Shown one piece after another: positions 1,765-31,960 of a stretch of 35,822 nt of DNA. Position 1 is the first letter of the stretch. Every line of letters starts with the position of its first letter. The notes beneath the pieces are model-generated. The model was not told the DNA's origin. It made no database searches and saw only the letters and a list, made by a program, of their open reading frames with translations. This DNA comes from a virus: the UHGV virus genome UHGV-1355336; one strand, given 5' to 3'. Made by a program: the position numbers and the translations under genes.

Positions 1765-4700
1765 ATGGGTAAAGGCAGCAGTAAGGGGCATACCCCGCGC
1801 GAAGCGAAGGACAACCTGAAATCCACGCAGTTGCTGAGTGTGATTGATGCCATCAGTGAAGGGCCGATTGAAGGTCCGGTGGATGGATTAAAAAGCGTGC
1901 TGCTGAACAGTACGCCGGTGCTGGACAGTGAGGGGAATACCAACATCGCCGGTGTCACGGTGGTGTTCCGGGCTGGTGAGCAGGAGCAGACTCCGCCGGA
2001 GGGATTTGAATCCTCCGGCTCCGAGACGGTGCTGGGTACGGAAGTGAAATACGACACGCCGATCACCCGCACCATCACGTCGGCAAACATCGACCGACTG
2101 CGCTTTACCTTCGGTGTGCAGGCACTGGTGGAAACCACCTCAAAGGGGGACCGGAATCCGTCGGAAGTTCGCCTGCTGGTTCAGATACAGCGTAATGGTG
2201 GCTGGGTGACGGAAAAAGACATCACCATTAAGGGCAAAACCACCTCGCAGTATCTGGCCTCGGTGGTGGTGGATAACCTGCCGCCGCGCCCGTTTAATAT
2301 CCGGATGCGCAGGATGACGCCGGACAGCACCACAGACCAGCTGCAGAACAAAACGCTCTGGTCGTCATACACCGAAATCATCGATGTGAAACAGTGCTAC
2401 CCGAACACGGCACTGGTCGGCGTGCAGGTGGACTCGGAGCAGTTCGGCAGCCAGCAGGTGAGCCGTAATTATCATCTTCGCGGGCGCATTCTGCAGGTGC
2501 CGTCGAACTATAACCCGCAGACGCGGCAATACAGTGGTATCTGGGACGGAACGTTAAAACCGGCATACAGCAACAACATGGCCTGGTGTCTGTGGGATAT
2601 GCTGACCCATCCGCGCTACGGCATGGGGAAACGTCTTGGTGCGGCGGATGTGGACAAATGGGCGCTGTATGTCATCGGCCAGCATTGCGATCAGTCGGTG
2701 CCGGACGGTTTTGGCGGCACGGAGCCGCGCATCACCTGTAATGCGTACCTGACCACACAGCGCAAGGCGTGGGATGTGCTCAGTGATTTCTGCTCGGCGA
2801 TGCGCTGTATGCCGGTATGGAACGGGCAGACGCTGACGTTCGTGCAGGACCGACCGTCGGATAAGGTGTGGACCTATAACCGCAGTAATGTGGTGATGCC
2901 GGATGATGGTGCGCCGTTCCGCTACAGCTTCAGCGCCCTGAAGGACCGCCATAATGCCGTTGAGGTGAACTGGATTGACCCGAATAACGGCTGGGAGACG
3001 GCGACAGAGCTTGTGGAGGACACGCAGGCCATTGCCCGTTACGGTCGTAACGTCACGAAGATGGATGCTTTTGGCTGTACCAGCCGGGGGCAGGCACACC
3101 GCGCCGGGCTGTGGCTGATTAAAACAGAACTGCTGGAAACGCAGACCGTGGACTTCAGCGTGGGTGCCGAAGGGCTTCGCCATGTACCGGGCGATGTCAT
3201 TGAAATCTGCGATGATGACTATGCCGGTATCCGCACCGGCGGGCGCGTGCTGGCGGTAAACAGCCAGACCCGGACGCTGACGCTCGACCGTGAAATCACG
3301 CTGCCATCTTCCGGCACCACGCTGATAAGCCTGGTTGACGGGCAGGGGAGTCCGGTCAGCGTGGAGGTTCAGTCCGTCACCGACGGCGTGAAGGTGAAAG
3401 TGAGCCGTGTTCCTGACGGCGTTGCTGAATACAGCGTATGGGGGCTGAAGCTGCCGACGTTGCGCCAGCGCCTGTTCCGCTGCGTGAGTATCCGTGAGAA
3501 CGACGACGGCACGTATGCCATCACCGCCGTGCAGCATGTACCGGAAAAAGAGGCCATCGTGGATAACGGGGCGCACTTTGACGGCGACCAGAGCGGCACG
3601 GTAAATGGTGTCACGCCGCCAGCGGTGCAGCACCTGACCGCAGAAGTCACCGCAGACAGCGGGGAATACCAGGTGCTGGCCCGCTGGGACACGCCGAAGG
3701 TGGTGAAGGGCGTGAGCTTCCTGCTTCGCCTGACCGTGGCAGCGGATGACGGCCGTGAGCGGCTGGTCAGCACGGCCCGGACGACGGAAACCACTTACCG
3801 CTTCACACAACTGGCGCTGGGGAACTACAGGCTGACAGTCCGGGCAGTAAATGCGTGGGGGCAGCAGGGCGATCCGGCGTCGGTATCGTTCCGGATTGCC
3901 GCACCGGCAGCGCCGTCGCGGATTGAGCTGACGCCGGGCTATTTTCAGATAACCGCCACGCCGCATCTTGCGGTTTATGACCCGACGGTACAGTTTGAGT
4001 TCTGGTTCTCGGAAAAACGGATTGCGGATATCAGGCAGGTTGAAACCACAGCCCGCTATCTTGGCACGGCGCTGTACTGGATAGCCGCCAGTATCAATAT
4101 CAAACCGGGCCATGATTATTATTTTTACGTTCGCAGTGTGAACACCGTTGGCAAATCGGCATTCGTGGAGGCTGTCGGTCAGCCGAGTGATGATGCATCA
4201 GGCTATCTGGATTTTTTCAAAGGCGAGATAGGGAAAACCCATCTGGCTCAGGAGCTGTGGACGCAGATTGATAACGGTCAGCTTGCGCCTGACCTGGCTG
4301 AAATCAGGACGTCCATTACGGATGTCAGCAATGAAATCACGCAGACCGTCAATAAGAAACTGGAAGACCAGAGTGCTGCAATTCAGCAGATACAGAAGGT
4401 TCAGGTTGATACAAATAATAACCTGAACAGCATGTGGGCTGTGAAGCTGCAGCAGATGCAGGACGGACGCCTTTATATCGCGGGTATTGGTGCCGGTATT
4501 GAGAACACCCCTGACGGCATGCAGAGTCAGGTGCTGCTGGCGGCGGACAGGATTGCGATGGTTAATCCTGCGAATGGCAACACAAAACCGATGTTTGTTG
4601 GTCAGGGCGATCAGATATTCATGAACGACGTGTTCCTGAAACGCCTGACGGCTCCCACCATTACCAGCGGTGGAAATCCGCCGGCATTTTCCCTGACACC

Positions 4701-8900: not shown

Positions 8901-9328
8901 ACACCCACAGCGCCAGCGCATCCAGTACGGATTTGGGGACGAAAACCACATCGTCGTTTGATTACGGCACTAAATCCACGAATAACACTGGTGCGCATAC
9001 CCATAGTGTTAGCGGTACGGCTGCTTCAGCCGGTGCACATACCCATTCGATGACATTTGTTTCAGGTGGTTCCAGTGGTGCTCCGGGAAGTGGATCACCT
9101 GATTATTCTAAATACAGTGTTAACACTTCTTCTGCAGGCGCTCATACGCACTCTGTATCGGGTACTGCTGCAAGCGCAGGTGCACACGCACATACTGTCG
9201 GTATTGGTGCTCATACGCACTCCGTTGCGATTGGTTCACATGGACATACCATCACCGTTAACGCTGCTGGTAACGCGGAAAACACCGTCAAAAACATCGC
9301 ATTTAACTATATTGTGAGGCTTGCATAA
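5978..9328 (+). CDS. stf: Side tail fibre protein (Stf/StfR-like) with Ala/Ser-rich repeat rod and His-rich C-terminal domain
   Basis: ATG at 5978 gives [27 protein letters not shown]... (lambda Stf-like N-terminus); ~330 aa of low-complexity A/S/T repeats with recurring KTSETNA units; C-terminus has repeated GAHTHS / HxH motifs. Confidence 0.85.
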
Positions 9329-9912
9329 TGGCATTCAGAATGAGTGAACAACCACGGACCATAAAAATTTATAATCTGCTGGCCGGAACTAATGAATTTA
9401 TTGGTGAAGGTGACGCATATATTCCGCCTCATACAGGTCTGCCAGCAAACAGTACCGATATTGCACCGCCAGATATTCCGGCAGGCTTCGTGGCTGTTTT
9501 CAACAGTGATGAGGCATCGTGGCATCTCGTTGAAGATCATCGGGGTAAAACGGTTTATGACGTGGCTTCCGGCGACGCGTTATTTATTTCTGAACTCGGT
9601 CCGTTACCGGAAAATGCCACTTGGTTATCCCCGGAAGGGGAGTTTCAGAAGTGGAACGGCACAGCCTGGGTGAAAGATGCAGAAGCAGAAAAACTATTCC
9701 GGATCCGGGAGGCGGAAGAAACAAAAAACAGCCTGATGCAGGCAGCGAATGAGCATATTGCGCCACTTCAGGATGCTGTAGATCTGGAAATCGCAACGGA
9801 GGAAGAAACCTTGTTGCTGGAAGCCTGGAAAAAGTATCGGGTGTTGCTGAACCGTGTTGATACATCAACTGCACCTGATATTGAGTGGCCTACGAACCCT
9901 GTCAGGGAGTAA
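9328..9912 (+). CDS. tfa: Tail fibre assembly chaperone Tfa
   Basis: 194 aa, start overlaps stf stop (TAATG); [54 protein letters not shown]... is typical Tfa. Confidence 0.85.
9751..9867 (+). repeat. Direct repeat copy 1 (3' part of tfa); copy 2 lies in the downstream tfa fragment
   Basis: [30 protein letters not shown] coding stretch recurs near-identically at ~10800-10913. Confidence 0.6.
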
Positions 9913-16999: not shown

Positions 17000-17824
17000 T
17001 CAGGCGGTGAAAGTACCAATAAAGGTTTCTACTTTGCTGTCTTTGAATTTCTCAACAAGCAGATCACGAAATTCGTTAGCCATTTCTTCCTGCACCGCTT
17101 CCAGCTGAATAATGCGCAGAACCAGTACAGGACGATCGCCAGTGATAATGCTGAGGCGTAATTTAAACGGACGTTCTTTCAGACCTTCAAACGGAACGCA
17201 TTTAAATTCAAATGCCACTGGCATAATGTCTTTGGTCTTCGCTTCGACAGACTCCATCAGGGAGCGTTTGCCGCTGAAGTCATTATCTTCAAAATCAGCG
17301 GTCTGGTTTGCTTCAATCGTGATTTTACGGACTGCCGCAGCCGCTTTTGTTGCTTGAATGGCGTCACCATTAGCATCAAAGCCCACAAGGTAGTCGGCCC
17401 AGTCTTCGATCCATTCTGCCAGTGACTTCTGGGAGTTACGCTCGCCGTTAACAGACAACAGAGCAGAGAACGGTGCTGTCTTTTTCAGTTTGAGAGTGGC
17501 AGTGTTATCTGCGTGACCTGGCTCATCAATAGTACCCAGGTTAAGCACACTGACGGCACGCATATTATCGGCATCGATAAAGCAGCGGGTGCCTTCATCT
17601 GCAAGATCTTTAGAATAACGGGTAAAATCATCGATGCTGGCAGTGGAAAGTGCACCACGGAAACGGAAGCGATTTAAATTAAATTTTTCCAGATCATGAA
17701 TGCGGAAATTCTCAGGCAATGCCACAGCATCGGCACCAATCTTACTGATAATTTCATTAACACCCTGAGCAGAAATAAGGGCATGGATTTGATTAATTGC
17801 GGTTGCGTCTAAGTTCTGAGACAT
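17000..17824 (-). CDS. DUF2303/YfdQ-like phage early protein
   Basis: 274 aa, [30 protein letters not shown]...; same length as recalled K-12 YfdQ. Confidence 0.6.
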
Positions 17825-17889
17825 AATAAGTCCTCACTATATAAAGATATTCAGTGATGAGATAAATAATCAGTTAATTAAGAACGATA

Positions 17890-18252
17890 TTAATGACCTG
17901 CTGCGCGGAGTTTTCCGTCAGGTTCACCGGCAAGAGTCAGTAATTGTCCCTGGTCTTCCTGCAGAATAGTCAGGCGACCACCGCGATTGACATACATCGG
18001 CGTTTCGGTGGTGTCTTCTTCGGAAATTTTCCCGCGGTTAGTCGGGCGAACATATGAGAGTTTGTGTTTGATTTTCACACGGTTCTCATCAAATGGTTCG
18101 ATTTCCAGGTTGAGTGAGACCTTACCTTTGGTTTTCGTGTTCATCACACCGGAAGCGACTTCACTGAGAACTGCGCCGATTTTGGTTTCAAATACGCCGC
18201 CGTCCAGCTCCCCGATAAATGCCTGCACATCAGTACTGCGTTCGCTAGCCAT
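17890..18252 (-). CDS. Hypothetical early protein (YfdP-like); first gene of the leftward operon
   Basis: ATG at 18252 with upstream GAGGAG; MASERSTDVQAFIGELDGGVFETKIGAVLSEVASGV... 120 aa. Confidence 0.5.
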   Translation of the reverse strand: MASERSTDVQAFIGELDGGVFETKIGAVLSEVASGVMNTKTKGKVSLNLEIEPFDENRVKIKHKLSYVRPTNRGKISEEDTTETPMYVNRGGRLTILQEDQGQLLTLAGEPDGKLRAAGH

Positions 18253-18298
18253 TTTGCTGCTCCTCATCATATCGACCCTGTAAGGTCGGTTAGTTTCT

Positions 18299-18400
18299 CC
18301 ACAAAACAGAGAAGAACACCTGCGGTGGCAGCCGCCCGGATGGATTGGGTTATGAGCCCGTCGTCCGGTGATGCTCTTCTCTGTTTTGTAAAAAGAGCGG
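18299..18400 (-). promoter_or_regulatory. Leader RNA element: boxA-like motif (CGCUCUUUUUAC in transcript sense) followed by a long hairpin with 15-bp perfect arms
   Basis: Arms ACAAAACAGAGAAGA (18301-18315) and TCTTCTCTGTTTTGT (18375-18389); boxA-like sequence at ~18389-18400; lies 50-150 nt upstream of the first early-left gene. Confidence 0.35.
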
Positions 18401-18871
18401 TACCAGCCGGAAGCAAGGGTACAAACTGGTACCGCCAAAGCAGTGGCTGTTGTGGTGACCGGTGCTGATCTCCGGCTTGCGGTTATTTCAGACTCTCACG
18501 GGCGTTTAATTGCCCCGCCGAACAGCTCTTTTCCGCAATAGCTGCAATGTCTTTCGCGCATCAGCCTGCGCATTCACCACAACGCTGAGAGCACTTAGCC
18601 AGTTACGGCACCACACTTTGTCGCGGTTCCATAAATGCCCTCATCGTTGCACCCTGGTCTCTTCCCAGGCGTCAAACCGAATCGCCACGCTGGTTAGGCG
18701 TCTTATCAGCATCCTCATTGACTTGCACATTCCGGCTACCTGGTTTGTTTGCCCGAGCAAGGAGTGGATTGTCCCCTTTAACGTCCCCAGACCGCTAACG
18801 ACGCATGTGCCATACGCCGTGTTACAACCAACCTTTCGTTAACAACAGTCTGTTGTTTGTTCAGATAATGA

Positions 18872-18888
18872 TGCTACTAAAAGTAGCA
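18872..18888. promoter_or_regulatory. Candidate left operator (OL-type) 17-bp palindrome TGCTACTAAAAGTAGCA
   Basis: Perfect 7-bp arms; near-identical to a 17-mer in the cI-cro intergenic region; flanked by AT-rich promoter-like DNA. Confidence 0.4.
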
Positions 18889-19121
18889 AAAATCAACAAC
18901 AAAAAGTAGAAGCGTGTATTTAATTTTTAGTTTTCTATATAACGTTATGAATTAAAAGGTTTTTCACAGATGGGGTGATGTGGCGTAGTTACGTATAGAA
19001 AATATCGAGTGTCTTTTGTTTTGGTTTAATTATTAGGTTAATTAGATAGTAATAATTTGGGGGAAAATAGTGGGAACTATGGATACAACGGGTCAGGAAC
19101 AGTGTTATTAAGCAGGCTACG

Positions 19122-19148
19122 AGTATAAAACCCGACCGGTTGGTCGGG
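19122..19148 (-). terminator. Rho-independent terminator ending the cI-ATPase (immunity) transcript
   Basis: On the - strand: GCCCGACC-AACC-GGTCGGG followed by TTTTAT, 37 nt past the ATPase stop. Confidence 0.5.
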
Positions 19149-19781
19149 CGAGAATTATGTTCGTTCTAAATCATGGTTATTGTATTACAGACACTTGACT
19201 ACTGTTGAAACATCAGATTCTAGTGCTTCAATTTGTGCTCTATTAGCTTGGGTCGCCATACCATAGATAGTGTAACTCTTATGCTGCAGCCTACTTAAAG
19301 GGCATCCCTCATGGTTTATTATTGCTGCAAGAGTATTACCATCTTTGACATTTTGAACTCTCTCGAAAGTAGCCACATTTGTGAACAGATGAGGATGTGT
19401 ATTTAACAGGTCATCCGTGATTCTTTTGATCTCTTCTGCATGTGATTTGAATGCTTTTGCTGCATCACTTTCATTAGTTCTTGAGCGGTTTTGTACGAAA
19501 AGGTGTAGTTCAGGTAGTTCGATAAGGTTTTGCTTTGCTTCTTTGTTGAAATCTAAGAACATTTCATCTTGTTCTGACTTGTCAATAGACACTCCATAAA
19601 TAAGTTTAACAAGGTTTTTTATTCCGCGAATTGATGCAGCATCGGCAGTGCAAGGGATAATTATTCTATTTGCCGCGACTACTCCCAATTCTGTGTAGCT
19701 GGCAAAACTTGGATTACAATCAATAAAAAATGTTTTTGCTCTGTCAGAAATGTTTTTATCGGCTTCAAAAGATGCTATTAG

Positions 19782-20976
<1,195 letters not shown>

Positions 20977-21703
20977 TTAGATCTACCAGCAAAGATCGGC
21001 TTTTCTTCCATGCTTCTTTTACTGGGGATGAGCCAATGTGAGATATTAAGCGTGAACAGATATCAAGATCGACATCACCAGGAAGAATATATAAGTTCTC
21101 TGGCATTTTTGTATTAACATCATGGGCTCGTACAAAGTAAGAAGATTCATTTCCTAAACGAGACAAAGGAGATTTGCTAAAACGCTCCTTGATATAACCT
21201 GCGATTGTAACATTTCTGTCTCGCAATTTATTTAGATTTTCTTCCCCGGTACCATTGCCACCAAGAATAATTTCTGAAACGTTTGATTGAGGGCATGAGT
21301 CAATAACCACAACATCTTGATCCGGATGAGATATAGCAAACTCAACGGCAAGATTATATGTAAGAAAAGTTTTTCCTACACCACCTTTGTTGTTCCATAC
21401 TAAATATTTTGTATTGGTGGAAATCATATCTGCTACCCCATCTGTCGCTTCAGTACGTTCATTAATCATTATCGTATCCTGTTGTATAGAATTGTCTATT
21501 ATTTATGTTTTATTTTGGTTTTTTTTGTGTTAGTAACGCACCCAAAGATAACATATGGTCTTTATCTTTTCTTACTTAGGGTAACAGCTCAGTGTTAATC
21601 CATTTTTATGGACCAATGTGCCAAATAAAATTTGTATAAAGATTTTCTATCCTTATCTTTTATCATCTGTGCTCGTTTGCTTTAACGATTGCTAGATGCC
21701 TAA

Positions 21704-22444
21704 TTAAAGTCGATTATATTTAATCGACTCATGAATCAGTGCCTTACCCATAACATAAAGCTGATCTTGCGACTTCTCATCAATGTACCATTTCTCATAG
21801 GCGGGGTTATCCGAAAGAACAGCTAGTTTGTTGCCTTGCATTTGTAGACGTTTAACATGGAAAGTCTTACCGTAAACGAAAGAGTAAACTCCATCAGTCT
21901 GGAAGTGGCGAACGGAAATGTCGACAAACAATCGATCCCCGGAAACAAGAGTTGGGGACATACTATCTCCATTTACCGTCATAACTTTTATATCATTCTG
22001 AGAACGGTTTCCGAAAAGAGAACGGGCATGTTCAGTTGTGAACTCAATGGCGTAGAGCACATCAACATAGTCTGAAAGCATATAGGTCCCAGGTCCTGCG
22101 CTAACGCTAAGATCCAAAACTTCTATCCTGTATACATCGGGCTTTGTTGGATTGGGGATGCTTGCCATTTCCTTACATTCCTCTCTATCTCCAACACCAT
22201 ATTCTAGATATGAAGCTGATACTCCAAGAGCCAACGCAAGTTTACTCATGACAGAGACACGTGGCTTCGCTGCGCCGATTGTGTATCGACGAGCCATTTC
22301 ATATGTAACGCCCACAAGACTTTTGAGTTGAGTGACAGAGATTCCTTTGATTGTCATCAATTCGTTTAGTCTCTTGGCGAAATCTGGATACTTCTGTTCT
22401 TCTACCATAGGTAGAAGATTACTCACATCACACGCGCTAGTCAT
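21704..22444 (-). CDS. CI-like prophage repressor (HTH plus S24 LexA-type autopeptidase domain); start codon uncertain (22444 or 22408)
   Basis: C-terminal VNGDSMSPTL...K motif pattern of S24 peptidases; N-terminal HTH; divergent to a cro-like gene; no SD before candidate ATGs. Confidence 0.75.
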   Translation of the reverse strand: MTSACDVSNLLPMVEEQKYPDFAKRLNELMTIKGISVTQLKSLVGVTYEMARRYTIGAAKPRVSVMSKLALALGVSASYLEYGVGDREECKEMASIPNPTKPDVYRIEVLDLSVSAGPGTYMLSDYVDVLYAIEFTTEHARSLFGNRSQNDIKVMTVNGDSMSPTLVSGDRLFVDISVRHFQTDGVYSFVYGKTFHVKRLQMQGNKLAVLSDNPAYEKWYIDEKSQDQLYVMGKALIHESIKYNRL

Positions 22445-22446
22445 TT

Positions 22447-22484
22447 CTATTTTAAGTAGTTGCAATTTGCTATTTTAAGTAGCA
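22447..22484. promoter_or_regulatory. Right operator region: two copies of CTATTTTAAGTAG spaced 23 bp; second sits in 17-mer TGCTATTTTAAGTAGCA
   Basis: Direct reading of the cI-cro intergenic region; 17-mer matches the OL candidate at 14 of 17 positions. Confidence 0.5.
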
Positions 22485-27907: not shown

Positions 27908-28660
27908 ATGAACCTTGAAGCCTTACCAAAATATTACTCCCCAAAATCTCCAAAATTGAGCGATGACGCACCGGCGACAGGCTCAGGTGGTTTAACGATT
28001 ACGGATGTGATGGCTGCGCAGGGGATGGTGCAGTCGAAAGCACCGCTTGGGTTTGCCTTATTCCTGGCAAAAGTTGGTGTTCAGGATCCTCAGTTTGCGA
28101 TTGAAGGTCTGCTCAATTACGCGATGGCAATGGATAACCCGACATTGAACAAATTGAGTGAAGAAACCCGGTTACAGATCATCCCTTACCTTGTGAGTTT
28201 TGCCTTTGCTGATTATTCCAGGTCTGCGGCAAGTAAGGCTCGCTGTGAGCATTGTGCTGGTACTGGATTTCATAGTGTATTGCGCGAAGTGGTGAAACAC
28301 TCCAGAAGCGGGGAATCTGTTATCAAGGAAGAGTGGGTGAAGGAATTATGTCAGCATTGCCATGGTAAGGGAGAAGTCAGCACGGCTTGCAGAGGGTGTA
28401 AGGGTAAAGGCATTGTCCTGGATGAAAAAAGAACCCGGCTTCATGGCGCGCCTGTTTATAAGATTTGTGGGCGTTGCAATGGAAACCGGTTTAGTCGTTT
28501 ACCGACCACACTGGCACGACGTCATGTCCAGAAGCTGGTACCAGACCTGACTGATTATCAGTGGTACAAAGGATATGCAGACGTCATTGATAAACTGGTA
28601 ACAAAGTGCTGGCAGGAAGAAGCATTCGCTGAAGCACAATTGAGAAAGGTGACGAGATAA
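27908..28660 (+). CDS. Q: Late-gene antiterminator Q (QuuQ-type, 250 aa)
   Basis: Cys-rich zinc-binding region (CEHCAGTG...CQHCHGKG...CRGCKGKG...CGRCNG); followed by promoter-like sequence and an intrinsic terminator. Confidence 0.75.
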   Translation: MNLEALPKYYSPKSPKLSDDAPATGSGGLTITDVMAAQGMVQSKAPLGFALFLAKVGVQDPQFAIEGLLNYAMAMDNPTLNKLSEETRLQIIPYLVSFAFADYSRSAASKARCEHCAGTGFHSVLREVVKHSRSGESVIKEEWVKELCQHCHGKGEVSTACRGCKGKGIVLDEKRTRLHGAPVYKICGRCNGNRFSRLPTTLARRHVQKLVPDLTDYQWYKGYADVIDKLVTKCWQEEAFAEAQLRKVTR

Positions 28661-31214: not shown

Positions 31215-31503
31215 CAACGAATCCTTCTGATCTGCTTTTGCGGGGCTTTTTTGTATCCGCTCCATGCCCGGCGTATAAGCGGAGGTTGGTCAGTTTTCTA
31301 AAAATTGAAATACCTCACAATTCAGCCAGTTAATGGTTGTTTGTCTGGCGAAGAGTTTGTAAATAAAAAAACGCATGGTGAATCCCCCTAAGCGGCGGGG
31401 CGAATCAGCAGTCAGTTCTGGGATAATCGCGGGTTCGTATGCTGATGCCGGACTCACCGGGAGGCACCCGGCACCATGCATCATGGTCATCCCCTTGTAT
31501 GAT

Positions 31504-31529
31504 ACCCCTCTCCGGAGGGGTATTTTTTG
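31504..31529 (+). terminator. Intrinsic terminator (ACCCCTC-TCCG-GAGGGGT then ATTTTTT)
   Basis: Read directly in ORF-poor DNA upstream of the holin. Confidence 0.6.
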
Positions 31530-31960
31530 GATAAAAAAGCCCGCGCTGGGAGGCACGGGCGGCAAGGAATAAAACGTGAAGAAATTTTCACAGGCGCATA
31601 ATAATCCGATGTTGCCAGATTTTGCAACTGCATCATCTGGTTATTATGTGAGCTGGAAAATCAGATTCTGTATGGACTGAAGCCATGCTGTTATTTAGGG
31701 CCAAAGAGCTGGCTTTTTCCCGCCTTCTCTCCAGTAACGATTAATGAGAAAAGAATGAAATGCTTTTCCTGGGGAGGAGGGCAGTAGAAAAAAGAACCCG
31801 CCAGCAAAAATATGGGGGATGAACAGCTTTTGCTACTCAGGTTGCTGGCGGGTATGGTTCTTCATGAAATAAGAATGTTACGCGGTATTTTTAATGAAAA
31901 TGATAATTATTGTCAATTGGTTGTGCGTATTTTTTCATACATGACTGGTAAAGGTGATTC

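What the first reader, a model, noticed from the sequence alone, without database searches (positions are those of the whole stretch)
18253..18870. About 600-nt ORF-free GC-rich structured leader with boxA-like motif and 15-bp-arm hairpin, but no N-like gene
Between the candidate OL/pL region and the first early-left gene there is no ORF of N-like size. The transcript would contain CGCUCUUUUUAC (boxA-like) immediately followed by a long hairpin, plus other stems such as GCGGTACCAG...CTGGTACCGC. This suggests cis-acting RNA-based antitermination (nut or put-like) or an unannotated regulatory RNA or small protein.
Basis: partly seen in the sequence, partly recalled or inferred. Interest (0 to 1): 0.65.

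Follow-up and report, generated by a model that had tools for sequence, protein, structure and literature searches.

The report
Phage early-left leader of tRNA-like RNAs
The 600-base gene-free stretch after this prophage's early-left promoter is not a lambda-style antitermination site but a string of conserved folded RNA modules. Its core is an unannotated, tRNA-shaped RNA found in phages across the Proteobacteria and in about one in six complete E. coli genomes.

Summary

The nut/put reading fails. The "boxA" is the 3' arm and U-tract of a conserved intrinsic terminator (18436-18390), and its boxA core is not conserved in SfV, Klebsiella or Salmonella relatives. There is no N-size ORF, no second copy after pR, and no similarity to HK022 put.

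The leader is a mosaic of mobile RNA modules:
- Module A (18825-18650), also found in P1 between trnI and ban.
- Hairpin D1 (18649-18580).
- Element "D2" (18581-18451).
- The terminator.

D2 has a covarying 7-bp closing helix, two near-invariant hairpins whose loops pair (U-A to C-G in five lineages) and a hypervariable arm. It is absent from Rfam 15, ARAGORN and RefSeq annotation.

D2 sits where SfV carries an STnc100-like sRNA and where other phages carry a real tRNA-Arg.

Most likely, pL makes a terminated, structured small RNA, and read-through feeds yfdP and the genes downstream of it. The function is untested.

The parts
18868..18896 (-). Predicted pL promoter with operator: -35 TTGATT (18896-18891), palindrome TGCTACTTTTAGTAGCA (18888-18872), -10 CATCAT (18873-18868). 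Inferred transcription start is near 18860.
   Evidence: Read from the sequence. The consensus scan did not call it. The analogous layout in L174 is cI-like ORF, terminator, operators plus TTGACA-17-TACATT, then D2. Homology with mEp460 stops at about 18841, so this part is immunity-specific.
18650..18825 (-). Module A: a conserved RNA-like module of about 176 nt with unknown fold.
   Evidence: About 78-88% identical copies lie in P1/P7 between tRNA-Ile and ban. Copies also lie in Uetakevirus phages upstream of D1 plus tRNA-Arg(UCU), always on the tRNA strand. Two hairpins show compensatory changes: CCUGG/CCAGG, CCUCG/CGAGG and GCCGG/CCGGC; and ACGC/GCGU versus GGAU/AUCC. The rest is invariant. 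No Rfam hit.
18580..18649 (-). D1: a long hairpin whose 3' strand abuts D2. Its conserved base is CAAC.../...GUUG and its top is variable.
   Evidence: z = -4.98. The same kind of hairpin, with unrelated sequences, precedes D2 in 35 of 150 contexts at 14 or more of 16 ungapped pairs, against 1 of 150 for shuffled controls. In other phages the top carries a tRNA T-arm (GGTTCGAnTCC).
18451..18581 (-). D2: a tRNA-shaped four-way junction. It has a 7-bp closing helix, AAU, hairpin GCGCA-GGCUGA-UGCGC (18576-18555), a 76-nt variable arm, and hairpin G-CCGG-AGAUCAGCA-CCGG-U (18476-18456) stacked directly on the closing helix.
   Evidence: Covariation was counted on 58 distinct sequences: 94.4% of cells paired versus 28-51% when slid, with 8-18 double changes per pair in the closing helix. 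Both hairpin stems show compensatory variants. Loop-loop pairing changes from U-A to C-G in 5 lineages. RNAfold alone returns the same cloverleaf. Not called by Rfam or ARAGORN.
18390..18436 (-). Intrinsic terminator (called tL0 here): GGCGGUACCAGCC.../...GGCUGGUACCGC followed by UCUUUUU.
   Evidence: z = -4.08. The stem is different but still complementary in SfV, Kp4866-6 and S.Typ Adana, each followed by C(C/U)UUUUUAC. In SfV it aligns to the terminator of the Rfam STnc100 model.
18388..18399 (-).
   Evidence: The string is not conserved as boxA in relatives.
18301..18389 (-). It has a 20-bp stem and an apical CGACGGGCUCAUAACCC (18363-18347), which resembles an initiator-tRNA anticodon stem-loop.
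   Evidence: z = -7.27. Conserved in SfV, Klebsiella and Salmonella phages, with compensatory changes at three stem positions and a 2-nt indel that rules out coding. Local alignment to E. coli tRNA-fMet scores 32, against 17.2 +/- 3.5 for shuffles (max 34, so roughly p < 0.01); the tRNA sequence was taken from memory. Real initiator-type tRNA-Met genes follow D2 in other phages.
18253..18300 (-). Spacer with a small hairpin CGACC-UUACAG-GGUCG (18288-18273) and Shine-Dalgarno GAGGAG (18265-18260) ahead of the yfdP ATG (18252).
   Evidence: Sequence reading. yfdP annotation comes.
31344..31532 (+). A bona fide STnc100 sRNA copy in the late region, downstream of Q. It is the known relative of the pL element.
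   Evidence: Rfam RF02076, 114.5 bits, E = 1.5e-24. Q lies at 27908-28660.

Best explanation
The interval is the untranslated 5' part of the repressor-controlled early-left (pL) transcript. It is built from mobile, conserved RNA modules rather than a nut or put site.

Reading 5' to 3' on the minus strand, the modules are A, hairpin D1, the tRNA-shaped element D2, an intrinsic terminator, the pseudo-initiator-tRNA hairpin D1', and then the yfdP ribosome-binding site.

D2 plus the terminator is a variant of the STnc100/PasD kind of lambdoid-phage small RNA, placed after pL instead of in the late operon.

Proposed mechanism:
1. After induction, RNA polymerase starting near 18860 transcribes A-D1-D2.
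2. Part of it stops at the terminator. This yields a stable RNA of about 470 nt, probably trimmed at the D1/D2 boundary by the tRNA-processing machinery to a D2-plus-terminator species of about 190 nt.
3. D2's invariant scaffold is locked by a loop-loop interaction and displays a variable arm as the likely effector part.
4. The fraction that reads through carries D1' and expresses yfdP, yfdQ, yfdR and the genes downstream of them as far as int, so the terminator acts as an attenuator.

Shown here: the anatomy, conservation, covariation, terminator, genomic placement and relatedness. Inferred: the promoter, termination in vivo, processing, and any trans-acting or Hfq-dependent function.
For: Anatomy and non-coding nature:
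- No gene and no annotation in the interval.
- The leader is a mosaic: its segments match different phages independently.

D2 structure:
- Closing-helix covariation: 58 sequences, 96 cells with changes on both sides versus 26 in shuffles, 94% of cells paired versus 28-51% when slid.
- Both hairpin stems have compensatory variants.
- The loop-loop pair changes from U-A to C-G in five independent lineages.

D2 distribution:
- The exact 21-mer occurs in 69 species genomes across Gamma-, Beta- and Alphaproteobacteria.
- D2 occurs in 846 of 5426 complete E. coli genomes and is never annotated.

D2 placement:
- 60 of 182 contexts have a CI-like repressor ORF upstream on the same strand, 44 of them within 137-711 nt.
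- In L174 the promoter's -10 lies about 10 nt before D2.
- About 12 contexts lie between Q and the lysis genes.

Terminator: conserved with covarying stems.

Link to STnc100: the SfV and S.Typ Adana elements in the identical frame match RF02076 at E = 5e-6 and 7e-5. That frame is ...GCGUUGUGG-UGAAUGCG...CACCACAAC-terminator-D1'. The SfV match includes the terminator.

tRNA equivalence:
- The same A-D1 pair is followed by a real tRNA-Arg whose acceptor starts within 1 nt of D2's.
- tRNAs near D2 are co-oriented 31 to 2.

Published background: STnc100 is listed in the literature as a prophage sRNA, and PasD as an abundant Hfq-associated prophage sRNA. The function of neither has been elucidated (bioRxiv 10.64898/2026.05.13.724894; PMC12370729).
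Against: - There is no expression, end-mapping or Hfq data for this RNA.
- The promoter is only a 4/6 + 4/6 match and was not called by the consensus scan.
- D2 itself gets no STnc100 score even at E <= 10, so the link rests on shared frame and flanks and could reflect cassette replacement rather than common descent.
- Only 63 of 150 D2 copies have a terminator-like site within 160 nt, against 42 of 146 in an imperfect upstream control. The sRNA-with-terminator format is therefore specific to the yfdP-type leaders, not a property of the family.
- D2's folding energy alone is unremarkable (z = -1.16).
- Most alignment members were fished with an exact 22-mer. Invariance of that motif is therefore partly built in, and IMG/VR contigs are not independent samples.
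- How polymerase passes the terminator without N is unexplained.
Confidence: 0.55

Rival explanations
1. D2, alone or with module A, is a cis-acting processive antiterminator RNA. It would be a functional analogue of HK022 put: it folds on the nascent transcript, binds RNA polymerase, and lets it read through the terminator at 18436-18390 and later terminators, replacing N.
For: - The element is the first thing transcribed from pL in many temperate phages.
- Some copies lie after Q, the other site where lambdoid phages set up antitermination.
- A conserved terminator follows immediately, and no N gene exists.
- Near-invariant loops across proteobacterial classes suit binding to a conserved host machine such as RNA polymerase.
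Against: - There is no counterpart downstream of pR, whereas put comes as putL plus putR (PMC9378689).
- No similarity to HK022.
- D2 is a 131-nt four-way junction, not two stem-loops of about 70 nt.
- D2 also sits in tRNA islands of lytic T1-like and Vi1-like phages and in the P1-like ban operon, next to tRNAs.
- The homologous SfV element aligns end to end with STnc100, terminator included. This fits an RNA that ends at that terminator rather than one that overrides it.
Confidence: 0.12
2. The modules are tRNA mimics whose main role is to engage host tRNA-handling or tRNA-targeting proteins such as RNase P, CCA-adding or modification enzymes, or anticodon nucleases like VapC. They would act as processing punctuation for the transcript and/or as decoys. 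D1' would present an initiator-tRNA anticodon arm, and D2 a tRNA elbow.
For: - D2 has a 7-bp helix stacked on a 5-bp hairpin with no spacer, a 2-3-nt linker to the first hairpin, and a loop-loop tertiary pair, which matches tRNA topology.
- D2 and a genuine tRNA-Arg are interchangeable behind the same D1.
- tRNAs near D2 are co-oriented 31 to 2.
- D1 tops often carry T-arms.
- D1' has GGGCUCAUAACCC.
- Initiator-type tRNA-Met genes follow D2 elsewhere.
- This rival is compatible with, and partly contained in, the best explanation.
Against: - None of the universal tRNA nucleotides or a T-loop motif is present.
- The tRNA covariance model and ARAGORN score nothing.
- The arm that replaces the anticodon arm is hypervariable, from 28 to 175 nt.
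- There is no conserved CCA or discriminator.
- A decoy role is pure inference.
Confidence: 0.2
3. The leader is mostly evolutionary debris: a decayed phage tRNA/sRNA array kept only because it sits between a promoter and the first gene. The terminator would be the only working part.
For: - D1' and the D1 tops look like truncated tRNAs.
- Module composition differs between phages.
Against: - Compensatory substitutions maintain helices in D2, D1' and A.
- A 21-mer is identical across proteobacterial classes.
- The loop-loop compensation indicates purifying selection.
Confidence: 0.06
4. D2 is a ligand-sensing aptamer (riboswitch) or a self-cleaving ribozyme that controls the downstream terminator or trims neighbouring RNAs.
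For: - The closing helix is variable, the junction and loop nucleotides are invariant, and the loops kiss, which recalls purine-type aptamers.
- Small ribozymes are common beside phage tRNAs (general knowledge).
- Short sequences upstream and downstream of the closing helix repeat in an X-X'-X pattern that could allow alternative pairing.
Against: - No segment of D2 is complementary to the terminator arm (and sequence reading).
- Fewer than half of the D2 copies have a terminator-like site within 160 nt.
- No match to any Rfam riboswitch or ribozyme model, even at E <= 10.
Confidence: 0.06

Closest known systems
STnc100 (Rfam RF02076) and its relative PasD, Hfq-associated small RNAs of lambdoid prophages
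   Same: - A multi-hairpin core is closed by a helix with inner UGGUG/CACCA.
- AAU follows the 5' strand.
- The last hairpin, CCGG(G)AG..CACC(C)GG, abuts the 3' strand, and an intrinsic terminator follows.
- Both are prophage-borne and lie downstream of a major phage promoter region.
- SfV and a Salmonella phage carry an STnc100-like core in exactly the frame that D2 occupies here.
   Different: - D2 gets no score from the STnc100 model.
- D2 has different first and last hairpin loops, which pair with each other.
- D2 has a hypervariable arm.
- D2 ranges far beyond Enterobacteria.
- Here it follows pL rather than lying in the late operon.
tRNA and tRNA-like RNAs (for example bacterial Y RNA YrlA, tmRNA tRNA-like domain)
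   Same: - Cloverleaf topology, a 7+5-bp coaxial arm, and a tertiary contact between the first and last hairpin loops.
- Sits in tRNA arrays on the tRNA strand.
- Is positionally interchangeable with tRNA-Arg.
   Different: - No conserved tRNA nucleotides, T-loop or anticodon loop, and not detected by tRNA models.
- YrlA has the T and D arms in permuted order and lies beside Ro60/rsr (PMC4201824). Neither applies here.
HK022 put RNA
   Same: A structured RNA transcribed first from pL in a lambdoid phage that lacks N.
   Different: - put is about 70 nt with two stem-loops and comes as a putL/putR pair (PMC9378689).
- Here there is one 131-nt four-way junction, no copy after pR and no sequence similarity.
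Lambda nutL (boxA-boxB) with N
   Same: Position downstream of pL, and a chance 11/13 resemblance of CGCUCUUUUUACAA to the rrn boxA (comparison from memory).
   Different: - No N gene.
- The boxA core is not conserved in relatives.
- The string is a terminator arm plus U-tract.
- No boxB.

Membership tests
lambda-type nut site | boxA sequence conserved among related phages | tested here: not met
   The GCUCUUU core becomes GUCCUUU, GCCCUUU or GACCUUU in SfV, Kp4866-6 and S.Typ Adana, and it covaries with the 5' arm of a hairpin.
lambda-type nut site | A short boxB hairpin just downstream, and an N gene after it | tested here: not met
   What follows is an 89-nt hairpin with a 20-bp stem. There is no ATG ORF of N size.
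lambda-type nut site | A second site in the pR operon | tested here: not met
   No repeat of any module elsewhere in the window.
HK022 put RNA | About 70 nt with two stem-loops, and similar putL and putR copies after pL and pR (PMC9378689) | tested here: not met
   The element is a single 131-nt four-way junction. There is no second copy and no similarity to the HK022 pL region.
HK022 put RNA | Acts through the RNA polymerase beta' zinc-binding domain to suppress termination | not testable with these tools
   Needs transcription assays.
STnc100 (RF02076) | Covariance-model score at or above the gathering threshold (47 bits) | tested here: not met
   The window leader gives no hit at E <= 10. 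Homologous-position elements score 39.5 bits (SfV) and 35.1 bits (S.Typ Adana), significant but below gathering. The window's late-region copy scores 114.5 bits.
STnc100 (RF02076) | Architecture: closing helix UGGUG/CACCA, AAU, terminal hairpin abutting the helix, then an intrinsic terminator | tested here: met
   Alignments and model alignment. Terminator covariation.
STnc100 (RF02076) | Accumulates as a discrete Hfq-associated small RNA | not testable with these tools
   No expression data are available here.
tRNA | Recognised by tRNA detectors, with conserved D/T-loop nucleotides and a 7-nt anticodon loop | tested here: not met
   ARAGORN finds no tRNA in the window. No Rfam tRNA hit at E <= 10. 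The arm at the anticodon position is 28-175 nt and unconserved.
tRNA-like fold (mimic) | A 7-bp acceptor-like helix stacked on a 5-bp hairpin, plus a tertiary contact between the first and last loops | tested here: met
   Pair counts. Loop-loop U-A to C-G compensation in 5 lineages. One uncompensated variant, L293.
tRNA-like fold (mimic) | Substrate of RNase P or other tRNA enzymes | not testable with these tools
   The only support is positional equivalence with tRNA-Arg behind the same D1 hairpin.
intrinsic (Rho-independent) terminator | A GC-rich stem directly followed by a U-tract, conserved with compensatory changes | tested here: met
   The simple scan missed it because its loop exceeds 8 nt.
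bacterial Y RNA (YrlA) | T-AS-D arm order, a GNCGAAN0-1G motif, and a neighbouring Ro60 gene (PMC4201824) | tested here: not met
   The arm order is tRNA-like, there is no Rfam YrlA hit, and no rsr gene was found among the ORFs of this window that were scanned.

The most novel reading that the evidence does not exclude
D2 is a previously undescribed, pan-proteobacterial class of phage RNA. It is a tRNA-shaped scaffold, locked by a 5-bp loop-loop helix, that presents a freely evolving arm. It is matured by the host tRNA-processing machinery and is deployed as the very first product of early (pL) or late transcription. STnc100/PasD would then be one enterobacterial branch of the same superfamily. 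The neighbouring D1/D1' hairpins would be co-opted pseudo-tRNAs, one of which displays an initiator-tRNA anticodon arm.
Probability: 0.3. Interest if true: 0.8.

Novelty: new variant of a known kind. Interest (0 to 1): 0.6.

Why it matters
- **N-less lambdoid phages.** A large group (SfV, mEp460, cdtI, Stx2c and Stx2k phages, and CPS-53-like prophages) begin their early-left operon with structured RNA and a terminator rather than with N/nut. That poses a concrete, testable question of how they time early gene expression.
- **An unannotated RNA.** D2 is well supported by covariation, occurs in about 16% of complete E. coli genomes and in phages of three proteobacterial classes, and is missing from Rfam and RefSeq annotation.
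- **A lead on STnc100/PasD.** D2's frame-sharing with STnc100, and its interchangeability with a real tRNA, suggest where these abundant prophage sRNAs of unknown function came from and how they may be matured.
- **A practical outcome.** A covariance model for D2, and for modules A and D1', would improve phage and prophage annotation.

Tried and rejected
- **Rfam.** I scanned the window at gathering thresholds and the region at E <= 10. Nothing matched in the leader. Relatives gave only ordinary tRNAs and a group II intron.
- **ARAGORN.** No tRNA or tmRNA in the window.
- **Y RNA (YrlA).** Rejected after reading PMC4201824: the arm order is different and there is no Ro60 gene.
- **Pas sRNAs.** PasB lies among structural genes and PasA, PasC and PasD lie in the late region, so none is this element.
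- **Literature search for the motif sequences.** No paper found. The supplements of the 10,006-csRNA catalogue are not held.
- **HK022.** My first fetch covered the wrong region. The second showed no similarity.
- **A conserved protein partner of D2.** None was found. The co-occurring ORFs are CI, Q, lysis genes and yfdP/Q/R.
- **Terminator after every D2.** Not general.
- **Consensus fold of module A.** RNAalifold gave mostly invariant pairs; only two hairpins covary.
- **A correction.** I first mistook the T-arm-bearing D1 of the P1-like phage RCS47 for its tRNA-Thr. The annotated tRNA-Thr ends just upstream of D1.
- **Not attempted.** I did not build my own covariance model, because the excised variable arm would have distorted scores.
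Full report
**Setting**

The window is a lambdoid prophage integrated beside tRNA-Arg and intD in E. coli. Bases 17800-19300 are 100% identical to E. coli 789 and many other strains.

On the minus strand the order of features is:
- a CI-like repressor (21704-22465, HTH plus S24 peptidase);
- a ParA-family gene, here split by an IS5-family element;
- a terminator (19149-19130);
- an AT-rich stretch;
- the interval in question;
- yfdP (18252-17890), yfdQ (DUF2303), yfdR and further genes, ending with int.

The phage has a Q antiterminator (27908-28660) and a bona fide STnc100 sRNA at 31344-31532.

**Observation**

- There is no credible ORF. On the minus strand there are only TTG/GTG ORFs of 36-49 aa, and PGAP annotates nothing.
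- GC is 0.53-0.56, against 0.31-0.46 in the flanks.
- The boxA-like string lies at 18399-18388, the GGUACC stem within 18436-18398, and a long hairpin at 18389-18301.
- The 641-nt minus-strand RNA folds better than all shuffles (z = -4.73).
- The individual hairpins give z = -4.1 to -7.3.

**The leader is a mosaic of modules found elsewhere**

A sensitive search of phage genomes split the 618 nt into segments with different distributions.
- Bases 1-185 are shared with SfV and SfIV.
- Bases 196-344 are shared with the P1-like phage RCS47.
- A 42-nt core is more than 90% identical in T1-like, Vi1-like, Erwinia, Edwardsiella and Cronobacter phages.
- Bases 325-568 are shared with Uetakevirus phages, next to a tRNA-Arg.
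- Bases 404-579 are shared with P1 and P7, between tRNA-Ile and ban.

Annotated loci showed that these pieces lie beside tRNA genes on the tRNA strand.

**Element D2 (18581-18451, minus strand)**

I scanned viral contigs with the 22-mer TGAATGCGCAGGCTGATGCGCG and inspected about 90 distinct contexts. They revealed a fixed architecture, in this order:
- a 5' strand;
- UGAAU;
- hairpin GCGCA-GGCUGA-UGCGC;
- a variable arm of 28-175 nt;
- hairpin G-CCGG-AGAUCAGCA-CCGG-C;
- CA;
- a 3' strand complementary to the 5' strand.

On 58 distinct sequences, with the variable arm excised, the named structure has 94.4% of cells paired, against 28-51% when the partners are slid. It has 96 cells with changes on both sides, against 26 +/- 4 in shuffles. 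The five variable pairs of the closing helix each show 8-18 double changes and 3-5 pair types.

Only 7 bp of the closing helix are well supported. The last hairpin (5 bp) abuts it without a spacer. Both hairpin stems have compensatory variants: CCGG to CUGG/CCAG and CAGG/CCUG, and GCGCA to GCACA/UGUGC and GCGUA/UACGC.

The first loop (GCUGA) is the complement of the last loop (UCAGC). Single-base variants of the first loop are rare. Three scans, each excluding the canonical base at one position, found 1, 2 and 1 hits.

Five independent lineages carry GCCGA in the first loop, and each has UCGG or UCGC in the last loop. This is a U-A to C-G compensation in backgrounds with different stems. One G-to-U variant is uncompensated.

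RNAfold alone returns the same cloverleaf for the window copy, although its energy is not exceptional (z = -1.16).

The topology is that of tRNA: a 7-bp helix, a 2-3-nt linker, a first arm, a central arm, and a 5-bp last arm stacked on the helix, with the first and last loops touching. No tRNA detector or Rfam model recognises it.

**Distribution and placement of D2**

The exact 21-mer occurs in 69 species-representative genomes. Most are Gamma-, Beta- and Alphaproteobacteria, for example Pseudomonas, Burkholderia, Janthinobacterium, Pantoea, Aeromonas and Rhizobium.

The E. coli variant occurs in 846 of 5426 complete genomes, at 716 chromosomal and 237 plasmid places, and is never annotated.

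Placement across 182 distinct contexts:
- 60 have a CI-like repressor ORF upstream on the same strand.
- 44 of those lie within 137-711 nt of D2.
- About a dozen lie between a phage-82-type Q and the lysis genes.

In L174 the order is cI-like ORF, terminator, two palindromic operators with TTGACA-17-TACATT, then D2 starting about 10 nt after the -10. The same terminator, D1' and yfdP as in the window follow.

Within 400 nt of D2, ARAGORN tRNAs are co-oriented 31 to 2. No protein family accompanies D2 universally.

**The "boxA plus stem" is a terminator**

Aligning the window with SfV, Klebsiella phage Kp4866-6 and Salmonella phage S.Typ Adana shows a GC-rich stem whose sequence differs but stays complementary:
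- window and SfV: GGCGGUACCAG/CUGGUACCGY;
- Kp4866-6: GGCGGUUAUCCA/UGGAUAACCGCC;
- S.Typ Adana: UCGGCGUC-GGC/GCC-GACGCCGA.

Each stem is followed by an invariant C(C/U)UUUUUAC. The boxA core is therefore not conserved; the hairpin and U-tract are. The simple terminator scan missed the site because its loop exceeds 8 nt.

**The long hairpin D1' (18389-18301)**

Its 20-bp stem keeps pairing through changes on both sides at three positions in the Klebsiella and Salmonella homologues. A 2-nt indel excludes coding.

Its apical part is nearly invariant and contains CGACGGGCUCAUAACCC. That is three G-C pairs closing a CUCAUAA loop, the hallmark of the initiator-tRNA anticodon arm.
- A local alignment with E. 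coli tRNA-fMet scores 32, against 17.2 +/- 3.5 for shuffles (max 34). I recalled the tRNA sequence from memory, and the alignment also covers part of the D arm.
- Some D2 copies elsewhere are followed by intact initiator-type tRNA-Met genes.

D1' therefore looks like a tRNA-Met derivative that lost its T arm and gained a long stem.

**Hairpin D1 (18649-18580) and module A (18825-18650)**

A long hairpin whose 3' strand abuts D2 recurs with unrelated sequences. It reaches 14 or more of 16 ungapped pairs in 35 of 150 contexts, against 1 of 150 shuffled controls. Its top often carries a T-arm.

In Uetakevirus phages the same A-D1 pair is followed not by D2 but by a genuine tRNA-Arg(UCU), whose acceptor starts within one nucleotide of D2's closing helix.

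Module A is highly conserved between lambdoid phages, P1/P7 and Uetakevirus. Two of its hairpins covary and the rest is invariant, so its fold is unresolved.

**Link to a known family**

In SfV and S.Typ Adana the D2 position is occupied by a different core. The flanks are identical...AGCGUUGUGG-UGAAUGCG on the 5' side, and ...CACCGGGAGGCACCCGG-CACCACAAC on the 3' side, followed by the same terminator and D1'.

That core matches Rfam STnc100:
- SfV: E = 5e-6, 39.5 bits, full length including the terminator.
- S.Typ Adana: E = 7e-5, 35.1 bits.
- Both are below the 47-bit gathering score.

STnc100 and D2 share four features:
- the inner closing pairs UGGUG/CACCA;
- the AAU linker;
- a terminal hairpin CCGG(G)AG..CACC(C)GG abutting the helix;
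- a following terminator.

D2 itself does not score against the STnc100 model.

STnc100 and its relative PasD are prophage sRNAs, PasD among the most abundant Hfq-associated ones in EPEC. Their function is still described as not elucidated (bioRxiv 10.64898/2026.05.13.724894; PMC12370729). The Pas sRNAs themselves lie elsewhere in the prophage.

**Against nut and put**

- There is no N-size ORF.
- The boxA is not conserved and there is no boxB.
- No module repeats after pR.
- The HK022 nun-pL-cI region has neither D2 motif nor any similarity.
- put is a pair of elements of about 70 nt, each with two stems, acting on the beta' zinc-binding domain (PMC9378689).

**Mechanism**

I favour the following sequence.
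1. A repressor-controlled pL starts transcription near 18860. The promoter is predicted at -35 18896-18891 and -10 18873-18868, with an operator palindrome in the spacer.
2. The polymerase first makes A-D1-D2.
3. Part of the transcription ends at 18436-18390, giving a stable structured RNA. This RNA is probably trimmed at the D1/D2 junction in the way a tRNA would be.
4. The remainder reads through into D1' and yfdP, so the terminator attenuates the early-left operon.

The anatomy, conservation, covariation and relatedness are shown. The promoter, termination in vivo, processing, and any Hfq-dependent or tRNA-mimic activity are inferred.

The rivals are a put-like cis antiterminator, a pure tRNA decoy or processing role, a riboswitch or ribozyme, and decayed junk. 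They are weighed in the rival explanations, each with its evidence and the result that would refute it.

**Novelty**

D2 appears to be undescribed. It is absent from Rfam 15, no paper contains the motif, and RefSeq carries no annotation for it. It is best filed as a new variant related to STnc100, with a tRNA-like fold.

Caveats:
- Most family members were collected with exact-motif scans.
- IMG/VR contigs are partly redundant.
- There is no expression evidence.

Noticed in passing
window 19782-20976: A 1195-bp insertion relative to E. coli 789 splits the ParA-family gene that lies between cI and pL. The fragments are 19185-19796 and 20930-21469. The insertion carries an IS5-family DDE transposase ORF (19850-20842, + strand) and has a 4-bp overlap at the junctions, consistent with a target duplication.
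   Followed up: partly
window 31344-31532 (+): A full STnc100 sRNA copy (114.5 bits) lies in the late region downstream of Q (27908-28660) and upstream of the ORFs I took, without testing, to be the lysis genes. The same prophage therefore carries both a canonical STnc100 and the D2 variant after pL.
   Followed up: partly
window 9671-9869 (+): Rfam IS009 match (213.9 bits) in the tail-fibre end of the prophage, overlapping the ORF at 9328-9912.
   Followed up: no
L004 (phage P1 AF234172) 2501-2683, minus strand: The unannotated gap of about 280 nt between tRNA-Ile and ban in the P1 ban operon contains a copy of module A, about 78% identical to the window. It begins 4 nt after the tRNA.
   Followed up: partly
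L003 (E. coli O157 typing phage 9) 2428-2745, minus strand: Module A plus hairpin D1 directly precede a tRNA-Arg(UCU). The same arrangement, with the module A marker motif 145 nt upstream of tRNA-Arg, occurs in 27 viral contigs.
   Followed up: partly
L303 (Klebsiella phage Kp4866-6), about 520 nt upstream of the terminator, minus strand: A diverged version of the whole leader. It has an A-like module, a D1 with two T-arm-like motifs, an STnc100-like core with GGUGG-AGGCA-CCACC, the terminator and D1'. It would be useful for covariation analysis of module A.
   Followed up: no
L006 (phage vB_EcoS_swi2) 1230-1882, minus strand: In a T1-like lytic phage, D1-D2 and a tRNA-Met form a small non-coding island on the strand opposite the surrounding structural genes. 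An HNH endonuclease gene lies further downstream on the same strand.
   Followed up: no
window 18459-18476 (-), and L206 2552-2569: The last hairpin of D2 (CCGGAGAUCAGCACCGG) gives the same weak partial match (13.7 bits) to the Rfam rydB model in two unrelated contexts. This may be chance or a distant relationship.
   Followed up: no
window 18289-18304 versus 23385-23370: An exact 16-nt match on opposite strands between the spacer just 3' of D1' and a site in the early-right region (E = 0.013 in the self-comparison).
   Followed up: no
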